Shown piece after piece: positions 5,373-38,916 of a DNA stretch of 55,761 bases. The position numbers and the translations under genes were made by a program. Source of the stretch: an uncultured Elusimicrobia bacterium (GTDB lineage: Bacteria; Elusimicrobiota; Elusimicrobia; CAZMIB01); contig CAZMIB010000002.1 in assembly GCA_964566245.1 (NCBI GenBank), positions 1 through 55,761 of the forward strand, read 5' to 3'. The notes beneath the pieces are model-generated. The model worked only from the letters and a program-made list of their open reading frames with translations. It searched no databases and was not told where the DNA came from. How positions within the stretch are numbered: position 1 is the first letter of the stretch; each line of letters begins with the position of its first letter.

Positions 5373-5756
5373 GGCAAGGTCGGCATAGGCACGCCCGCGC
5401 CCAGGGCGACGCTGGACGTCAACGGACTGGTCAGACTCTGGAACTACTCAAACGTCGGAGAGCCCCCGGGCCAAGAAGGTTCGGTCTACTACAACGCCGC
5501 GACCAAGCATTTCCGGGGCTTCAAGAACGGACGCTGGGGCGACCTGGGAATGGATTTCTCGAAATGCCAGATCTGCTTCGCCTACGCCGCGGACTGGGAC
5601 GGCGGGCAGTGCAACTCCGAGTCATGGGACGGCACCTCGTTCGGCTCCGGAGTCATCTGCGCCCCGTTCGGGCAGTGGATGCCGCGCTACCGCGACGACA
5701 CGGACGACCGGCCCGGCGGCTGCCGCATGTCCTGGAAGATCGACTGCGCTCCCTGA
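5373..5756 (+). pseudogene. 5'-truncated paralog of the tail-fibre-like Gly-rich protein (32846..33820) with a different, Cys-rich C-terminal domain
   Basis: Frame of ORF 5550..5756 stays open upstream to 5256 with no ATG/GTG/TTG. GKVGIGTPAPRATLDVNGLVRLWNY..GSVYYNAATKHFRGFKNGRWGDLG aligns with GKVGIGTPSPSSTLDVGGQLRAASG..GMIYYNTATNQFRAFQNGAWGSFG of the 324-aa protein. The signal/anchor and first ~60 aa of that protein have no counterpart here. Only the last 68 aa (7 Cys) follow an ATG. Confidence 0.5.
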
Positions 5757-5758
5757 TT

Positions 5759-6925
5759 TCAGGGAGGGGTCAGCGAAAGCAGCAAGGCTAGCGACGCGAA
5801 CGCCGCCCCCGCGCCGAAAGTCGCGGCGGGGCCCATCTTGTCCCACAACAGGCCCGCGAAGACGCTCGAGCCCAGCGCGGCCAGACCGCTCGCGAGGTTG
5901 AACAAGCCAAAGGCCGTCCCGCGTATGTCGCGCGGCGCGGACGAGGCGACCATCGCGGAGAGCAAGCCCTGGGTCAGACCCATGTGCAAGCCCCATAGGC
6001 CTACGCCCACCGCGACCAGAGGCAAGCCTCGCGCGCCCGCCAGGGTGACGTCCGCGGCAAACAAAACGAGCATGCCCGCGCCGAGAAGCACTCGACGGTC
6101 CATACGATCGGAAAGCTCCCCCGCCGGATAGGCCGCAAGCGCGTAGACGACGTTCATCGTCACGAGCACGGCCGGAGCGAGCGCGTCCGGAAGGCCCGCG
6201 CCGCGCGCGCGGAGGATCAGGAACGCCTCGCTGAATCTCGCTAAAGAGAAGACCGCTCCGAGAGCCAGGACGCGCCAGTAGCCGGTGCCGAGGCCCCCCA
6301 GGGCAGCGCGATGGATCGTCCAGCGCGGCTCCGTTTTTCCGGCCGGCTCGGGCTCGCGGATGCCGAAGGCCAGCAGCAGCACCGACAGCGCGGCCGGGAT
6401 CACCGCGACCCAGAACGCGAAACGGAAGCCCCCGGGGCGGCGCGCCAACAGCAGCATCGCGAGCAGCGGCCCGATGAAGGCGCCGACCGTGTCGAGCGCC
6501 TGCCGCAGGCCGTAAGCCGCGCCGCGGACCGGCTCGGGCGTCAGGTCGGCGATCAAAGCGTCGCGCGGAGCCCCGCGCAGGCCCTTGCCGATCCGGTCCA
6601 TGAAGCGCGCGCCCAGCACCCAGCGCACCGAGACGGCCGTCGCGAACAGCGGCTTCGAAAGGGCCGCGAGCCCGTAGCCGAGCACCGCGAGCTCCTTGCG
6701 CCGGTTGAGCCAGTCGCTGAGCGTCCCGGAGAACACCTTCGCGATCTGCGCGGTCGCCTCGGCGACGCCCTCGACGAAACCGACGGCCGAGGCGCTCGCG
6801 CCCAGGACCGAGACCATGAACACCGGCAGCAGGCCGTGGATCAGCTCGGAGGAGGCGTCCATCAGCAGGCTGACGAAGCCCAAGGTCCAGACGGCTCGCG
6901 GGACGCGCCGGTCGACGGAAGGCAT
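5759..6925 (-). CDS. MFS transporter
   Basis: 388 aa, about 12 hydrophobic segments. MFS-type loop motif GTLSDWLNRRK between TM2 and TM3, repeated as GELSDRMDRR in the second half. Confidence 0.9.
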   Translation of the reverse strand: MPSVDRRVPRAVWTLGFVSLLMDASSELIHGLLPVFMVSVLGASASAVGFVEGVAEATAQIAKVFSGTLSDWLNRRKELAVLGYGLAALSKPLFATAVSVRWVLGARFMDRIGKGLRGAPRDALIADLTPEPVRGAAYGLRQALDTVGAFIGPLLAMLLLARRPGGFRFAFWVAVIPAALSVLLLAFGIREPEPAGKTEPRWTIHRAALGGLGTGYWRVLALGAVFSLARFSEAFLILRARGAGLPDALAPAVLVTMNVVYALAAYPAGELSDRMDRRVLLGAGMLVLFAADVTLAGARGLPLVAVGVGLWGLHMGLTQGLLSAMVASSAPRDIRGTAFGLFNLASGLAALGSSVFAGLLWDKMGPAATFGAGAAFASLALLLSLTPP

Positions 6926-33963: not shown

Positions 33964-34288
33964 TCAGCTCAAGGAGGCCAGCAAGGCGGCGTTGTTCTTG
34001 TGGCTCTTCAGAAGCTCGTGGAGGGTCTTGGTCGCCTCAAGATCGCCCATCGAGGCCAAGGCCCGCCTCAGCTTCCAGACGCCCTCCAAGGTCGGCGGGG
34101 GGAGCAGCAGCTCCTCCTTGCGCGTTCCGGTCTGGCGCACGTTCAACGCCGGGAAGACGCGCTGCTCGGCGGCCTGCCTCGAGAGCACGAGCTCCATGTT
34201 GCCGGTGCCCTTGAACTCCTGGAAGATGATGTCGTCCATCTTGCTGCCGGTCTCGACGAGGATGGTCGCCAAGATCGTCAGCGAGCCG
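33964..34288 (-). pseudogene. detached duplicate of the rho 3' end (last ~108 codons), no start or promoter of its own
   Basis: Encodes GSLTILATILVETGSKMDD...HKNNAALLASLS*, identical in amino acids to the C-terminus of rho (35829..37202). Upstream the frame runs into unrelated sequence and a TGA. Confidence 0.85.
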
Positions 34289-34480
34289 GCAGCCGGCGGA
34301 GCTAGAAAGCGAGGAGAAACTCCAACAGCGGCACCATAAGAATGCGGGCTTCCTCATCCCATGCGTAGGCGTCGCGGGCAACCACCAGCCCATGGGATGA
34401 TTTAAACCGACTCATGAAATGTTAAGCAAGCTCCGCCGCCGTCTCGGGCGAGTGCCCGCCGGAACCAGCCGCTGTACTTA

Positions 34481-34548: not shown

Positions 34549-35721
34549 ATGCTCAGGAACCGCTATGTCGGCGCAGCGGCGCTTGAAGACCTCGCGAGGA
34601 AGATGGTCTTCATCGCGGGCCCGCGCCAGATCGGCAAGACGACTTTGGCCAAGGACCTCATCGGCGGCCAGTTCAAGGAAACCGCCTATTTCAACTGGGA
34701 CAACCAGCAGGAGCGGCGGCAGCTCATGTCCGGCCGGTGGCCGGCCGCGGCCCAGTTGGTCGTCCTCGACGAGATTCACAAGTTCAAGGGTTGGAAACGC
34801 TTCCTTAAGGGCCAATACGATACCCTCAAGGACAAGCACCGCATCCTGGTCACGGGAAGCGCGCGTTTGGATATCTACCGCAAGGGCGGCGATTCGCTCC
34901 AAGGCCGCTACCATCTCTACCGTCTGCACCCGTTCTCGCTGGCGGAGCTGCCGGGCGGCGAGAGGCCTATCGAGCCGTTCAAGGCGCTGCCGCTGGATTC
35001 AGCCGCGCCGCGAAGCAGCCTGGACGCCTTGGAGAAATTCGGAGGATTTCCCGAGCCCTTCTTGTCCCAGGAGGAACGAACGCTGCGGCGCTGGCATAAC
35101 GAGCGGAACGACCGCCTCTTTCGCCAGGACATCCGGGACGTGGAAGCGATTCGCGACCTGGGGCGCATGAAGCTCCTGGGCGACATGCTCCCGGACAAGG
35201 TCGGGGCCCTGCTCTCGATCAATGCGATCCGCGAGGACCTGGAAGTGAGCCACCGCGCCGTCGCGCACTGGCTGGATATACTGGAGTCCTTCTACTACCA
35301 CTTCCGCGTCTATCCCTACGCGCGTTCCGCTTTCCGCGCGCTCAAGAAGGTTCCCAAGCTGTACCTATGGGATTGGTCGGAAGTCACCGACGAGGCGGCG
35401 CGCTTCGAGAACCTCGTCGCCTCTCACCTCCTAAAGCTCGTCCATTGGCTGCAGGACCGGGAGGGCTACAAGGTCGGGCTGCATTTCCTCCGCGACGACG
35501 CCAAGCGGGAGGTGGATTTCCTCGTCACGGCCGATGAGAAACCTTGGGTCCCGGTCGAGGTCAATTAGCAGGACCAAAGAGTTTCGTCGCACCATCGATA
35601 CTTACGAGAGACACCGAAAATCCCCTTAACAAACCAGGTGCTCAAGAAGCAGGGGGTGGATGTCCTCAGCAACGGGACCCGGGTCGTCTCGGCCGGCAAG
35701 TTCCTGGCCGCGCTGATCTGA
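34549..35721 (+). pseudogene. AAA_14/DUF4143-family ATPase (paralog 2) interrupted by an in-frame TAG at 35566..35568
   Basis: ORF 34549..35568 (GPRQIGKTT, LDEIHK, TGSARLDIYRKGGDSLQGRY) stops at ...PVEVN*. The same frame continues QDQRVSSHHRYLRETPKIPLTNQVLKKQGVDVLSNGTRVVSAGKFLAALI* to TGA 35719..35721. That tail aligns with the C-terminus of paralog 1 (AEAKLSSRTMEPHHLLHAAKVGGVPVVQLLLEPDVVRADKNGAYVVSAARFF). Confidence 0.8.
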
Positions 35722-35828: not shown

Positions 35829-37202
35829 TCAACTCAGGGACGCTAGGAGCGCGGCGTTGTTTTTGTGGCTCTTCAGGAGCTCGTGAAGCGTCTTGGTGGC
35901 TTCCAGGTCGCCCATAGAGGCCAGGGCCCGGCGCAACTTCCAGACGCCCTCCAAGGTCGGAGGCGGAAGCAGCAACTCTTCCTTGCGCGTTCCGGTCTGG
36001 CGCACGTTCAACGCCGGGAAGACGCGCTGCTCGGCGGCCTGCCTCGAGAGCACGAGCTCCATGTTGCCGGTGCCCTTGAACTCCTGGAAGATGATGTCGT
36101 CCATCTTGCTGCCGGTCTCGACGAGAATGGTCGCGAGAATCGTCAGCGAGCCGCCCTCCTCGAGGCAGCGCGCGGCGCCGAAGAAGCGGCGCGGCGTCTC
36201 CATGGCCCTGGCGTCGAGACCGCCGGTCATCGTGCGCGTGCTCGGCGTGGCGCGATTGTGCGCCCGCGCCAGGCGGGTCAGCGAGTCGAGCAGAACGAGG
36301 ACGTCCTTGCCGGCCGCCGCCTCGCGCATCGCGCGCTCCAGAACCTCCGCGGCCACCGAGATATGCTCGTCATTCGGGCGGTCGGATGAGGACGCGACGA
36401 CCTCCGCCGGCACGCTGCGCTTGAACTCGGTGACTTCCTCGGGCCGCTCGTCGACGAGCAGGCAGTACAGCTTCATGTCCGGCGCGGCCCCGTGGACGGC
36501 TTGGCAGATTTGCCTGAGCAAGGTCGTCTTGCCGGCCTTCGGCGGCGAGACGATCAACCCGCGCTGGCCCTTGCCGATCGGAGACAGCAAGTCGATCGCC
36601 CTGGTCGAGGGATCGGACAGGCCCGACTCCAGGCGTATCCAGTCCTTCGGGGCGATCGCCGTCTTTCCTTTATAGAGCTCATCGGCGGACGGCCGAGACG
36701 GCGGCGGGGCCGGCCTGAAATCGCGCCGTTGCTGAGACGGACCGTGGCGGCGATTGTTGAAACCCCCCTCGCGCCGCGGCCCATGCCCGCCGTGTCCTCC
36801 GTGACCGCCCTGTCCGCCGTGGCCGCCGTGGCCGCCTTGGCCGTGGCCGCCGCCCTGACGATTGCCGCCTTGACCGCCGAAACCTTGGCCCCCGTGCCCG
36901 CCTTGGCCCTGGCCGTGGCGCCCGCCCTGCCCGCCTTGGCCGCCTTGGCCGTGGTGGCCGCCTTGCCCGCCCTGGCCGCCTTGACCGAAATGGCCGCCCT
37001 GACCGCCCTGGCCTCCCCCTCCGTGACGGCGGCCGCCTTGGCCCCCATGCCCGCCTTGACCGCCGTGGCCTCCCTGCCCCCCGTGGCCGCCTTGACCGCC
37101 GTGGCCCCCCTGGCCCGAGTGTCCTCCACCCTGGCCGCCCTGGCCTTGACCGCCAAATCCACCCCTGTCGTTGCGGCCTGGCCGCCGGTCTGGATGTCTC
37201 AT
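35829..37202 (-). CDS. rho: Rho-type transcription termination ATPase with a Gly/Gln/His-repeat N-terminus instead of the canonical RNA-binding NTD
   Basis: 457 aa. C-terminal ~300 aa colinear with Rho (DLLSPIGKGQRGLIVSPPKAGKTTLL Walker A, LLVDERPEEV, VLLDSLTRLARA, TGGLD, TILATILVETGSKMDDIIFQEFKGTGNMELVL). Start overlaps the rluD stop (ATGA). Confidence 0.88.
   Translation of the reverse strand: MRHPDRRPGRNDRGGFGGQGQGGQGGGHSGQGGHGGQGGHGGQGGHGGQGGHGGQGGRRHGGGGQGGQGGHFGQGGQGGQGGHHGQGGQGGQGGRHGQGQGGHGGQGFGGQGGNRQGGGHGQGGHGGHGGQGGHGGHGGHGPRREGGFNNRRHGPSQQRRDFRPAPPPSRPSADELYKGKTAIAPKDWIRLESGLSDPSTRAIDLLSPIGKGQRGLIVSPPKAGKTTLLRQICQAVHGAAPDMKLYCLLVDERPEEVTEFKRSVPAEVVASSSDRPNDEHISVAAEVLERAMREAAAGKDVLVLLDSLTRLARAHNRATPSTRTMTGGLDARAMETPRRFFGAARCLEEGGSLTILATILVETGSKMDDIIFQEFKGTGNMELVLSRQAAEQRVFPALNVRQTGTRKEELLLPPPTLEGVWKLRRALASMGDLEATKTLHELLKSHKNNAALLASLS
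36750..37170 (-). repeat. coding low-complexity tandem repeat (about 18-nt period, GGHGGQ units) in the rho 5' region
   Basis: Translated GQGGHGGQGGHGGQGGHGGQGGHGGQGG...GGHGGHGGQGGHGGHGGHG. DNA consists of imperfect GCCGCC(T/G)TGGCC-type units. Confidence 0.8.
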
Positions 37203-38140
37203 TTTTTCTTTCGGCTCCCGGCCCCGCTAGGGACCTTGGCCCCCTTAAGGGCCTTCCAGTATGCGACGAAATCCTTGGGCAGCTCGGCCGCGCAGCGGAC
37301 CGGCTTGCCGGTCCTGGGATGCGCGAACTCGAGCCGGTACGCGTGCAGCATCATGCGGGCCGGCGCCGGCAGCCCGGGCGTCTTGGCGTCGGGGTCTCCC
37401 GCGACCGGATGCCCGGCGAGAGTCAGGTGCGCCCGGATCTGGTGCGTGCGCCCGGTCAGCGGGCGGGCCTCGACGAGCGTCGCCTTCGCCGCCCGCTCGA
37501 GCACCTCGTACTCGGTCACCGCGTCGCGCCCCAGCTTCGAGACGGCCATCCTGCGACCCTCGCGGCCGATCGGCGCGTCGATCGTTCCGTTCTCCCGCGC
37601 CACCTGGCCCGCGACGATCGCGCGGTAGGCTTTCTTGACCTCGCGGTCCCGGAACGCGACCGAAAAACTCTCATGCGCCGCGGCCGTCTTCGCGATCAAC
37701 AGCACGCCGGAGGTCTCGCGGTCGAGGCGGTGCACGAGCCCGACGCGCGGCAGATTCGCGAGCTCGGGCCTCAGTCGCTGCAGCAGCGAGACGACGGTCG
37801 GCTCCGCCTCGGCCAGCGCGGCGTCGGGCCGGGCCAGCCAGCTCGTCCCGACCGGATGCATCAGCAGCCCGGACGGCTTGTCCAGCACCAGCAGCTCGTC
37901 GTCCTCGAGCAAGATGCATCTCGCGAGGTCCGGCCCCGCCGGCTCCTCCGGCCAGACGACGAGGACCGTTTCCCCCTGCTTCACGCGGTACGAGCTGTCC
38001 CGCTTATGTCCGCCGACGGTCACGTTGCCGCGCTCGATCAGGCCCTTGAGAAAGACCCGGCTGAAGCCGTTCAAACGCTGGGCAAGAAAGGCGTCCAGCC
38101 TCAAGCCCCCTTCCTCGCAAACGATCTCGGTCTGTTTCAT
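37199..38140 (-). CDS. rluD: RluA/RluD-family 23S rRNA pseudouridine synthase
   Basis: ATG 38140 (ATGA overlap with the lgt stop). S4-like N-terminus. HRLDRETSGVLL catalytic motif. TGRTHQIRAH. Confidence 0.9.
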   Translation of the reverse strand: MKQTEIVCEEGGLRLDAFLAQRLNGFSRVFLKGLIERGNVTVGGHKRDSSYRVKQGETVLVVWPEEPAGPDLARCILLEDDELLVLDKPSGLLMHPVGTSWLARPDAALAEAEPTVVSLLQRLRPELANLPRVGLVHRLDRETSGVLLIAKTAAAHESFSVAFRDREVKKAYRAIVAGQVARENGTIDAPIGREGRRMAVSKLGRDAVTEYEVLERAAKATLVEARPLTGRTHQIRAHLTLAGHPVAGDPDAKTPGLPAPARMMLHAYRLEFAHPRTGKPVRCAAELPKDFVAYWKALKGAKVPSGAGSRKKK

Positions 38141-38916
38141 GCCGCGTGACTCCGGGACCTCGACGCCATGACGACGGCGACACCGGCCAGGACGGCCAGG
38201 CTCGCCGTCTGGGAAACCGAAAACGGCCCCAGCGGGGCCCCGCGGTCGTCCCCTCGGAACAGCTCGACCACGAACCGCAGCGCCGCGTAGAGAACGAGAT
38301 ACGCCGTGAAGGCGGCGCCCGGCCGCAAGCGGCCCTCGACCCGGCGCGGCAAGATAATGAAATGCAGCAGCGCGAAGATCGCCAGATTCCCCGCCGCCTC
38401 GTAGAGCTGGGCCGGATGCAGCGGCACGCCGAGCAGACCGTCGGGAACCAGGCAATCCGGACGCGTGAAGCGCACGCCGAGGAACGTCCGGGTCGGACTG
38501 CCGTAGCAGCCGCCGGCCGCGAAACAGCCCAGCCGGCCGAAGGCGTGCCGAAGCGGGGTCGCCGGGAACACGAAGTCGGCCTTGGCCAGGTAGTCCCAGC
38601 CGCGCCGGCGCGCGTAGACGGCCGTCGCCGCCAAGGCGGTCAGCAAGCCTCCGAAGAAAATGAAGCCGTAGCGCAGGTTGGCCAAGAACTCGCCGAACGA
38701 GGCGTAGTTGCCTTGCAGCAGCACGTAGGCCAGCTTGCCGCCCAAGAAGCCGCTGCCGAGCACGAGGTAGGCCAGCTTCCAGAAGTCGTCCTCCGAGAGG
38801 CGCATCTCCTTCAGGCGCGCGTGGGCGTACTGCAAGCCCGCCAGGCAGCCGAGAGCGATCAGCACGCCGTAGGTGTGCAGGGAAATCGGACCGACCCTAA
38901 GGAGTATCGGGAACAT
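38137..38916 (-). CDS. lgt: prolipoprotein diacylglyceryl transferase
   Basis: 259 aa. PISLHTYGVLIALG, HAFGRLGCFAAGGCYG (Lgt signature), HPAQLYEA. Confidence 0.93.
   Translation of the reverse strand: MFPILLRVGPISLHTYGVLIALGCLAGLQYAHARLKEMRLSEDDFWKLAYLVLGSGFLGGKLAYVLLQGNYASFGEFLANLRYGFIFFGGLLTALAATAVYARRRGWDYLAKADFVFPATPLRHAFGRLGCFAAGGCYGSPTRTFLGVRFTRPDCLVPDGLLGVPLHPAQLYEAAGNLAIFALLHFIILPRRVEGRLRPGAAFTAYLVLYAALRFVVELFRGDDRGAPLGPFSVSQTASLAVLAGVAVVMASRSRSHAA

What the first reader, a model, noticed from the sequence alone, without database searches (positions are those of the whole stretch)
36750..37202. Rho without its RNA-binding N-terminal domain, replaced by a ~140-aa GGH/GGQ/RGG-like repeat
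Similarity to canonical Rho begins only at ...ELYKGKTAIAPKDWIRLESG..TRAIDLLSPIGKGQRG, the connector just before the ATPase domain. Upstream of this there is no helix bundle and no OB-fold or CSD-like primary RNA-binding site (no GFGFLR-type motif). Instead there are 18-nt-period repeats encoding GGHGGQ units, flanked by Arg-rich stretches (RRPGRNDRGGFGG, GFNNRRHGPSQQRRDFR). The start codon overlaps the rluD stop, so no missing exon-like piece can hide upstream. Known Rho insertion domains are added to the NTD and do not replace it. An IDR or RGG-type RNA-binding surrogate would be a distinct way of loading Rho. The same gene is the target of the 3'-end duplication above.
Basis: partly seen in the sequence, partly recalled or inferred. 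Interest (0 to 1): 0.65.

Follow-up and report, generated by a model that had tools for sequence, protein, structure and literature searches.

The report
Second Rho lacking its RNA-binding head
This gene encodes an extra, conserved copy of the bacterial transcription terminator Rho in which the whole RNA-recognition head is replaced by a floppy, positively charged glycine-rich tail; related genomes also keep a normal Rho, so it is an unusual accessory motor and not the cell's only terminator.

Summary
Window 35829-37202 (-) encodes a 457-aa protein. Residues ~171-457 are an intact Rho connector plus ATPase motor. Residues 1-170 are a G/Q/H/R-rich, repeat-encoded tail with no helix bundle and no OB fold; Pfam, a custom OB HMM, hhalign and AlphaFold all agree. 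It is not an assembly artefact: all 120 closest database homologues and all 37 Elusimicrobiota species loci share the architecture, always with a net-positive tail.

The interpretation needs correcting. This is not "Rho that lost its NTD". It is an ancient paralogue. Two large Elusimicrobiota contigs, one a complete chromosome, carry both this OB-less gene and, elsewhere on the same record, a canonical Rho (Rho_N + OB + ATPase) in the classical coaE-rho context. The two proteins are only 46% identical, and the OB-less clade is monophyletic (96/100 NJ bootstraps).

All catalytic and RNA-translocation residues are invariant or conservatively substituted, and the paralogue is almost as conserved between genomes as the canonical Rho. 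It is therefore most likely a working RNA motor that engages RNA through its cationic tail or through partners.

Second, shorter "Group B" Rho copies are known, but they keep the OB domain. An OB-less, tail-headed family is undescribed in the papers I could search.

The parts
35829..37202 (-). CDS of the OB-less Rho paralogue (457 aa plus stop)
   Evidence: ORF list; NCBIfam PRK09376 388 bits over residues 176-455; 120 homologues with the same architecture
36693..37202 (-). Codons 1-170: polycationic G/Q/H/R-rich intrinsically disordered tail (GGHGGQ-type units flanked by Arg-rich stretches)
   Evidence: Composition and net charge +13; no Pfam hit at E<=10; hhalign against OB profile 0.02%; AlphaFold pLDDT<50 for residues 1-154
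36787..37115 (.). Imperfect tandem repeat in the DNA (period 9/18/36 nt) that encodes the GGH/GGQ units
   Evidence: TRF; the repeat finder family D1; synonymous codon variation between units
35829..36692 (-). Codons 171-457: Rho connector plus RecA-type ATPase/translocase domain with intact P-loop, catalytic Glu/Arg valve, Walker B, Q-loop, R-loop and Arg finger
   Evidence: PDB sequence alignment to E. coli Rho 132-409; Foldseek rmsd 1.3 A over 285 columns to Rho structures; residue-by-residue conservation in 47 family members
37199..37202 (-). ATGA overlap of the rluD stop codon and the start codon (translational coupling); a second ATGA overlap joins lgt and rluD at 38137-38140
   Evidence: Sequence read directly
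37199..38140 (-). Upstream gene rluD (S4 + PseudoU_synth_2), likely starting at the ATG at 38140
   Evidence: Pfam; junction sequence
33964..34290 (-). Displaced duplicate of the last ~107 codons of this gene, separated from it by an AAA_14/DUF4143 gene (34549-35568, +)
   Evidence: the repeat finder D3, 91% nt identity; 26 nt differences in the last 300 nt, all synonymous; Pfam of the inserted gene

Best explanation
The gene encodes a member of an ancient, conserved family of second Rho-like motors found in Elusimicrobiota, with a few relatives labelled as other phyla. SHOWN: the protein keeps the complete Rho connector and ATPase/translocase domain, with every catalytic and RNA-contacting residue conserved. 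It has no N-terminal helix bundle and no OB-fold primary RNA-binding site. In their place is a 23-170-aa glycine/glutamine-rich disordered tail that is always net positive. In two large contigs of relatives, one a complete chromosome, it coexists with a canonical, highly conserved Rho at a separate locus. It is under purifying selection. INFERRED: it assembles into a ring and moves along RNA through the conserved Q- and R-loops. Because it lacks the C-rich-RNA-reading OB cleft, it is brought to RNA in a sequence-unspecific way. Candidate routes are electrostatic capture by its six flexible Arg/Gly tails (RGG-like, possibly pH-tunable through 19 histidines in this copy) and/or a CTD-binding partner such as NusG. 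It therefore serves as an accessory RNA translocase or terminator beside the canonical Rho, which presumably does the general rut-dependent termination. The source genome most likely carries a canonical rho outside this window.
For: The architecture is established. Family-wide, 120/120 best homologues have PF00006 only, and all 107 N-terminal extensions of >=20 aa are net positive at +5 to +26, with median 30% G, 24% Q+N and 13% R+K. All 37 Elusimicrobiota species loci have the same form. A custom OB HMM detects the OB in all 21 non-Elusimicrobiota loci where the upstream region is readable, including three held out of the model, but finds none in the Elusimicrobiota loci or in any frame of the whole window. 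Coexistence with canonical Rho on the same record is shown for CP096137.1 and CBDIQC010000001.1. The canonical gene sits in the classical trxA-polA-coaE-rho(-rpmE-prfA) context. The duplication is ancient: the paralogue is 46% identical to the canonical CTD in the same genome. Clades are separate, with the OB-less clade at 96/100 and the canonical Elusimicrobiota clade at 100/100 NJ bootstraps. Evidence for function: P-loop K/T, E211, R212, D265, R269, the Q-loop TGG, the R-loop and R366 equivalents are invariant or conservatively substituted in 47 sequences. Between the same two genomes the paralogue cores are 88% identical, against 92% for the canonical CTD. The duplicated 3' end in the window differs at 26 nt, all synonymous. 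Literature: disordered basic regions of Rho aid RNA engagement in M. tuberculosis (PMC13650167), and the NusG KOW domain binds the Rho CTD and closes the ring even on C-less RNA (PMC7819879).
Against: No biochemical or expression data exist. RNA binding by the tail, ring formation and termination activity are all inferred. The source genome outside the 55.7-kb window could not be searched, so canonical rho is not shown for this organism; its protein is not in the indexed collections. Coexistence was demonstrated in only two genomes, both from the 'MMNEE' subclade, whereas the window protein branches at the base of that subclade in the unsupported NJ topology. In E. coli, removing N-terminal basic residues abolishes RNA binding (cited in PMC11347177), so a PBS-less homo-hexamer may load RNA poorly on its own. 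NusG-contact residues were not examined.
Confidence: 0.6

Rival explanations
1. It is a hetero-hexamer subunit. The OB-less protein does not work alone but mixes with canonical Rho subunits in one ring. The canonical subunits supply OB sites in trans, and the tails add unspecific RNA affinity, condensate formation or down-regulation.
For: Both genes coexist in the same genomes. The ring-forming ATPase domain, Arg finger and P-loop are conserved. Hetero-hexamers were already proposed for Group A/Group B Rho pairs (PMC11347177, section 'Species with two rho genes').
Against: The paralogue is only 46-52% identical to the canonical CTD of the same phylum, so interface compatibility is not evident. 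The two genes lie about 0.5 Mb apart in different operons. No co-variation or interaction data exist.
Confidence: 0.2
2. It is the sole Rho with an IDR surrogate. In this organism the canonical rho has been lost, and this protein is the only Rho, loading onto RNA through the tail instead of a PBS.
For: No OB or Rho_N is encoded anywhere in the 55.7-kb window. The window gene sits in a different context (lgt-rluD-rho) from the conserved murI-DUF5677-rho-RidA context of all other lineages, so this lineage is atypical. The protein passes NCBI's PRK09376 Rho cut-off, 388 bits against 315.
Against: Relatives with large or complete contigs carry a canonical Rho as well. The duplication predates the clade. 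The 120 best matches to an Elusimicrobiota canonical Rho, many named Elusimicrobia/Elusimicrobiota, are 86-100% identical to it. A 55-kb window is about 2% of a genome.
Confidence: 0.12
3. It is an artefact or a decaying gene. On this reading the repeat region is an assembly collapse or frameshift that hides a real NTD, or the gene is a degenerating duplicate without function.
For: Repeat-rich, 77% GC DNA is error-prone. One relative (L032, a long-read MAG) does have a frameshift inside its tail. A partial duplicate of the 3' end lies nearby.
Against: The same architecture appears in independent assemblies of 37 species and 120 protein clusters. The repeats are imperfect, with varied codons. 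Catalytic residues are invariant. The paralogue is 88% identical between genomes whose canonical Rho CTD is 92% identical. The duplicated segment shows 26 synonymous and 0 non-synonymous differences.
Confidence: 0.03

Closest known systems
Second, shorter Rho copies: 'Group B' of D'Heygere et al. 2013, Type 4/2d of Moreira et al. 2024 (PMC11347177), and NCBIfam NF041509 'paralog_Rho2, Rho short form'
   Same: It is an extra rho gene beside a very conserved canonical copy. It arose by ancient duplication, lacks the N-terminal helix bundle, and keeps the catalytic and bicyclomycin-pocket residues. Its ATPase domain matches NF041509 at 328 bits. The Desulfobacterales, Opitutales and Planctomycetota short forms were among the nearest non-Elusimicrobiota loci recovered.
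   Different: All described Group B/Type 4 proteins keep the OB RNA-binding domain; Moreira et al. define a 'functional Rho' by it. This family has none. The score is far below the NF041509 cut-off, 328 against 628. In the published scheme it would fall into the 'Rho-like, one domain only' class, which is treated only in a supplement I could not read.
Rho factors with disordered insertion or initial regions (Bacteroides thetaiotaomicron, Mycobacterium tuberculosis NID, Clostridium botulinum, Xanthomonas)
   Same: It has a compositionally biased, basic, disordered N-terminal region on a Rho motor. In M. tuberculosis such a region is needed for productive RNA recruitment (PMC13650167), and in B. 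thetaiotaomicron it drives condensates (cited in PMC12360218).
   Different: In those proteins the IDR is added to an NTD that is retained. Here the IDR is all there is upstream of the connector.
Canonical Rho (E. coli P0AG30; PDB 1PVO, 3ICE, 5JJI)
   Same: The connector plus ATPase domain is 54% identical. The predicted fold superposes at 1.3-1.9 A over ~285 residues. P-loop, E211/R212, D265, Q-loop, R-loop and R366 are conserved.
   Different: Residues 1-130 of the canonical protein (helix bundle and OB primary binding site) have no counterpart. TIGR00767 scores 377 against a cut-off of 509. In relatives the gene is not at the canonical coaE-rho locus.
RGG/Arg-Gly-rich disordered tails of RNA helicases and RNases (for example eukaryotic DEAD-box proteins, or the Arg-rich segments of RNase E); this comparison is from general knowledge and was not tested
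   Same: A flexible Gly/Arg-rich cationic appendage sits on an RNA-dependent NTPase. This is a plausible source of unspecific RNA affinity and phase separation.
   Different: The motor is of a different class (a ring-shaped RecA-type hexamer). This copy is unusually rich in His and Gln, and no binding data exist.

Membership tests
Canonical transcription termination factor Rho | N-terminal helix bundle (Pfam PF07498 Rho_N) | tested here: not met
   No hit for the whole protein or for residues 1-190 at E<=10. AlphaFold shows no helices before residue 173.
Canonical transcription termination factor Rho | OB-fold primary RNA-binding site (PF07497 Rho_RNA_bind, GFGFLR-type motif) | tested here: not met
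   No Pfam hit. The custom OB HMM is negative in all six frames of the window. hhalign probability is 0.02%. Residues 1-154 are disordered in the AlphaFold model.
Canonical transcription termination factor Rho | Rho-type RecA ATPase with P-loop, catalytic Glu/Arg valve, Q-loop, R-loop (secondary RNA site) and Arg finger | tested here: met
   Alignment to E. coli Rho 132-409. All key residues are conserved in 47 family members. Foldseek top 50 hits are all Rho.
Canonical transcription termination factor Rho | Curated equivalog score cut-offs | tested here: inconclusive
   NF006886/PRK09376 scores 388 bits against a cut-off of 315 (passes). TIGR00767 scores 377 bits against a cut-off of 509 (fails).
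Canonical transcription termination factor Rho | Is the genome's orthologous rho (classical coaE-rho / rho-rpmE context, single conserved copy) | tested here: not met
   In CP096137.1 and CBDIQC010000001.1 the canonical gene occupies that locus, and the OB-less gene lies elsewhere. The clades are separate. This could not be tested for the source genome itself.
Canonical transcription termination factor Rho | Hexameric ring with RNA-dependent ATPase/helicase and termination activity | not testable with these tools
   Needs biochemistry.
Second 'Group B' / Type 4 / paralog_Rho2 short-form Rho | Coexists with a conserved full-length Rho in the same genome | tested here: met
   Shown for two relatives on single records. 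Inferred, not shown, for the source genome.
Second 'Group B' / Type 4 / paralog_Rho2 short-form Rho | Lacks Rho_N but retains the OB RNA-binding domain | tested here: not met
   Rho_N is absent, but the OB is absent as well. By contrast the Desulfobacterales, Opitutales and Planctomycetota short forms all score 53-117 bits with the OB HMM.
Second 'Group B' / Type 4 / paralog_Rho2 short-form Rho | NCBIfam NF041509 score cut-off (628 bits) | tested here: not met
   328 bits, covering only profile positions 78-359.
IDR-bearing Rho (Type 2 of Moreira et al. 2024) | Additional compositionally biased region of >25 aa, predicted disordered | tested here: met
   170 aa, 49% Gly, pLDDT<50.
IDR-bearing Rho (Type 2 of Moreira et al. 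2024) | The additional region accompanies a retained RNA-binding domain | tested here: not met
   No RNA-binding domain is present.

The most novel reading that the evidence does not exclude
A conserved family of Rho motors works entirely without a primary RNA-binding site. The ring is delivered to RNA by six flexible polycationic Gly/Gln/His/Arg tails, possibly switched by pH or condensation. It gives Elusimicrobiota and a few other uncultivated lineages a second, sequence-blind termination or RNA-remodelling pathway beside the rut-reading canonical Rho. A variant is that it tunes canonical Rho by forming mixed rings.
Probability: 0.3. Interest if true: 0.75.

Novelty: new variant of a known kind. 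Interest (0 to 1): 0.5.

Why it matters
Current models hold that Rho needs its OB-fold primary site to find C-rich rut RNA before the ring closes, and the most recent survey defines a "functional" Rho by that domain. This family is a natural, strongly conserved Rho motor with that module deleted and a disordered cationic tail in its place, living next to a normal Rho. It offers three ready-made experiments: how much of Rho loading can be done by an unstructured tail or by partners such as NusG, what a second sequence-blind Rho is for, and whether mixed rings exist. It also shows that genome annotation currently gives the canonical Rho and this paralogue the same name, "transcription termination factor Rho", in Elusimicrobiota. 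That naming hides the duplication.

Tried and rejected
1. A cryptic OB fold in residues 1-190 is rejected by Pfam at E<=10, the custom OB HMM, hhalign and AlphaFold.

2. An alternative downstream start that would skip the tail is rejected. No ATG/GTG/TTG occurs before codon 205, which lies inside the conserved core.

3. An assembly collapse is rejected by family-wide conservation and by codon diversity within the repeats.

4. Homologues that seemed to lack a tail (280-300 aa) are mostly gene-call or frameshift artefacts. L032 has its MMNEE start in another frame.

5. A split Rho with the NTD encoded nearby is not found in the window or within 6 kb of 37 related loci.

6. Three genome-collection scans were largely wasted. 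The closest OB-bearing representative, P0124, turned out to be Clostridia-type. The P0134 scan and the consensus-connector scan were swamped by generic motifs (VDERPEEV, GLIVAPPK). The last one did, by luck, return L262, an Elusimicrobia MAG with a canonical Rho, which unlocked the paralogy test.

8. The window protein is not in the indexed assemblies, so its own genome could not be traced.

9. The supplement of Moreira et al. that describes one-domain 'Rho-like' proteins is not held. No paper linking Elusimicrobiota and Rho-dependent termination was found.

10. Rfam and promoter/terminator scans of 33-39.5 kb gave nothing relevant.

11. My first impression that the paralogue evolves much faster than canonical Rho was wrong: 88% against 92% identity for the same genome pair.

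Full report
**Observation**

The ORF at 35829..37202 on the minus strand encodes 457 aa. Its ATG (37202-37200) overlaps the TGA of the upstream rluD as ATGA. A second ATGA joins lgt to the probable rluD start at 38140, so lgt-rluD-rho are tightly coupled.

Pfam sees only the generic ATP-synt_ab domain, at residues 200-402. NCBIfam Rho models align residues 176-455 to profile positions 132-412 of 413. The PDB sequence search aligns residues 176-449 to E. coli Rho 132-409, and residues 163-456 to Thermus-type Rho 134-425. Homology therefore begins exactly at the connector that follows the canonical N-terminal domain.

Residues 1-170 are 49% Gly, 15% Gln, 11% His and 10% Arg, with net charge +13 and only 4 acidic residues. 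The DNA shows an imperfect tandem repeat of period 9/18/36 over 36787-37115.

**Is an NTD hidden?**

Four independent tests say no.
- Residues 1-190 hit no Pfam family even at E<=10.
- I built an OB-domain HMM from E. coli Rho and OB-bearing Rho loci fetched here. It finds the OB in all 21 non-Elusimicrobiota loci where the upstream region is readable, including three left out of the model. It finds nothing (E>1) in any frame of the 55.7-kb window or in any Elusimicrobiota locus.
- A profile of family N-termini compared with an OB profile by hhalign gives probability 0.02%.
- AlphaFold2, run with a 47-sequence alignment, gives pLDDT<50 and no secondary structure for residues 1-154 and pLDDT>90 for the motor. 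The model superposes on solved Rho structures over ~285 residues at 1.3-1.9 A, the C-terminal domain only.

No ATG/GTG/TTG lies in frame between codon 1 and codon 205, so the tail must be translated to obtain a complete motor. The GGH/GGQ units are written with mixed GGC/GGT/GGA/GGG, CAA/CAG and CAC/CAT codons. That argues against a collapsed or recently slipped repeat.

**Relatives**

All 120 best hits among 5.8 billion proteins carry PF00006 only, and many are named Rho of Elusimicrobia/Elusimicrobiota. Their pre-connector extensions range up to 167 aa. Of these, 107 are >=20 aa, and every one of those is net positive (+5 to +26). Their medians are 30% G, 24% Q+N and 13% R+K, and 67 carry a run of at least four Arg.

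A scan of GTDB species genomes returned 37 Elusimicrobiota loci with this form. The Planctomycetota, Opitutales and Desulfobacterales hits all keep a GFGFLR-type OB. Apparently tail-less members are largely artefacts. In L032, for example, the MMNEE start is in another frame, upstream of a frameshift.

In the other lineages the gene sits in a very conserved context. RidA lies downstream in all 37 species loci (and in L065). Wherever the fetched upstream sequence allows, murI is found upstream, usually with the amidase and in most loci with DUF5677 between murI and rho. None of these genes is in the window, so this lineage has a different context.

**The decisive point: it is a paralogue**

A scan that was otherwise swamped by generic motifs returned L262, from 'Elusimicrobia bacterium GWA2_66_18'. 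It encodes a 452-aa canonical Rho (Rho_N + OB + ATPase) directly after coaE. Searching with it gave 120 hits that all carry PF07498+PF07497+PF00006. They are 86-100% identical to the query (all but the query's own cluster 86-94%), and many are named Elusimicrobia/Elusimicrobiota.

Two of these hits lie on the same records as OB-less genes:
- P0371 lies on the complete chromosome CP096137.1, within 2,959,230-2,970,582, in the order trxA-polA-rhomboid-coaE-rho. The same chromosome carries the OB-less P0041 within 3,482,325-3,503,524.
- P0412 lies on CBDIQC010000001.1, within 679,356-690,678, in the order coaE-rho...rpmE-prfA-prmC. The same contig carries the OB-less L032 within 1,270,899-1,283,819.

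Within one genome the two proteins share only 46% identity over the motor. In a neighbour-joining tree of motor domains, the Elusimicrobiota OB-less proteins, including the window's, are monophyletic in 96/100 bootstraps. The canonical Elusimicrobiota Rho form a separate tight clade (100/100) among ordinary Rho. The duplication is therefore old.

The window's own genome could not be examined beyond 55.7 kb, and its protein is not in the indexed assemblies. By phylogenetic bracketing I estimate about 80-85% that it also has a canonical rho.

**Is the paralogue functional?**

The equivalents of E. coli P180, K181, G183, K184, T185, E211, R212, E215, D265, S266, R269, R272, G287, G288, T323, S325, G337, R366, E368 and E369 are invariant in 47 members. 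K283, T286 and K326 vary only conservatively (R/K, S/T, R/K).

For the same genome pair, the paralogue cores are 88% identical and the canonical CTDs 92% identical. The window supplies an internal test as well. A displaced duplicate of the last ~107 codons (33964-34290) differs from the in-gene copy at 26 of the last 300 nt, and all 26 differences are synonymous.

**Mechanism**

Shown: the protein is a complete Rho motor with the secondary (translocation) RNA site. It has no primary site, carries a conserved-in-kind polycationic disordered head, and coexists with canonical Rho.

Inferred: it forms a ring, translocates RNA, and is recruited without reading C-rich rut sequence. Recruitment could go through the Arg/Gly tails, through CTD-binding partners, or both.

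The literature makes both routes plausible. The disordered NID of M. tuberculosis Rho is required for productive RNA recruitment (PMC13650167). The NusG KOW domain binds the Rho CTD and closes the ring even on C-less RNA (PMC7819879). The 19 histidines in this copy would raise the tail's charge on acidification, which suggests pH-tunable binding or condensation; this is speculation.

A mixed ring with canonical Rho, already proposed for Group A/B pairs (PMC11347177), is the main rival.

**Comparison with what is known**

Second, shorter rho genes ('Group B'; Type 4/2d; NCBIfam paralog_Rho2) are documented in 116 of 2730 genomes, but they retain the OB domain. The four-type scheme defines functional Rho by that domain. 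The window protein scores 328 bits on paralog_Rho2 against a cut-off of 628, and only over the motor. Rho proteins with disordered regions keep their NTD.

I found no paper that discusses Rho of Elusimicrobiota, apart from a passing mention of an OB-bearing 'Elusimicrobia' Rho (PMC11441560), which fits the canonical copy. One-domain 'Rho-like' sequences are mentioned only in a supplement I could not read.

OB-less, basic-headed Rho-like proteins also turned up under other labels:
- Candidatus Sericytochromatia (P0162), which groups with the Elusimicrobiota clade in 98/100 bootstraps.
- Candidatus Hydrogenedentes (the P0197/P0285 cluster).
- An unlabelled cluster (P0134) on 4.4-4.9-Mb contigs.

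**Verdict**

This is a new variant of a known kind: a second-copy Rho, here without any RNA-binding domain and with a disordered cationic head. It is worth a specialist's attention, but less radical than 'the cell's Rho has replaced its NTD'.

Noticed in passing
window 33964-34290 versus 35829-36155, with the inserted gene at 34549-35568 (+): The last ~107 codons of the Rho paralogue are duplicated about 1.87 kb downstream. Over the last 300 nt the copies differ at 26 positions, all synonymous (100% identical peptide, 91% identical DNA). Between the copies lies a single AAA_14/DUF4143 ATPase gene. A similar CCCTCTC...GGGAGAGGG hairpin follows both stop codons. This looks like integration of foreign DNA carrying its own version of the gene's 3' end, but no recombinase is present in the insert.
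   Followed up: partly
L001-L036, L061, L065, L067 (Elusimicrobiota loci): The OB-less rho is followed by a RidA/YjgF (Ribonuc_L-PSP) gene in every locus, with a 4-nt overlap in L067. Where the fetched upstream sequence allows, it is preceded by murI, usually the amidase, and in most loci DUF5677. An unrelated OB-less cluster (P0134; L068-L070) also has a RidA-type gene next to it. The window has none of these genes. A functional rho-ridA link is possible but unexplored.
   Followed up: partly
P0162, P0197/P0285, P0134 cluster, P0122, P0205, P0245: Rho-like proteins with a basic low-complexity head and no detectable OB occur under other labels: Candidatus Sericytochromatia, Candidatus Hydrogenedentes, and unlabelled 4.4-4.9-Mb contigs. 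Whether those genomes also have a canonical Rho was not tested. Cyanobacteriota are reported to lack Rho, which makes the Sericytochromatia case worth checking.
   Followed up: partly
L032 (CBDIQC010000001.1), about 5700-6040 in locus coordinates: A long-read MAG has a frameshift inside the Gly-rich tail, so gene callers report a 297-aa 'tail-less' protein. Several 280-300-aa database entries are probably similar truncations.
   Followed up: yes
window 37199-38455 (-): The mechanical rluD ORF (TTG at 38455, 418 aa) is probably too long. The S4 domain starts at residue 118, and an ATG at 38140 overlaps the lgt stop as ATGA. That gives an rluD of about 313 aa and a coupled lgt-rluD-rho series.
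   Followed up: partly
L022 and L036 (both from MAG JAYTIP01, GFS_2774): One MAG carries two different OB-less rho genes (392 and 389 aa) on separate contigs. This is either a mixed bin or a further duplication.
   Followed up: no
L019 (CALRXP010000026.1): A contig labelled 'Candidatus Endomicrobium trichonymphae' carries an OB-less rho with the Gly/Arg-rich 'MMNEE'-type head typical of the other Elusimicrobiota loci. The taxonomic label looks doubtful.
   Followed up: no
NCBI names seen: The canonical Rho and the OB-less paralogue of Elusimicrobiota are both annotated simply as 'transcription termination factor Rho', because the paralogue passes the PRK09376 cut-off. The duplication is therefore invisible in annotations.
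   Followed up: yes
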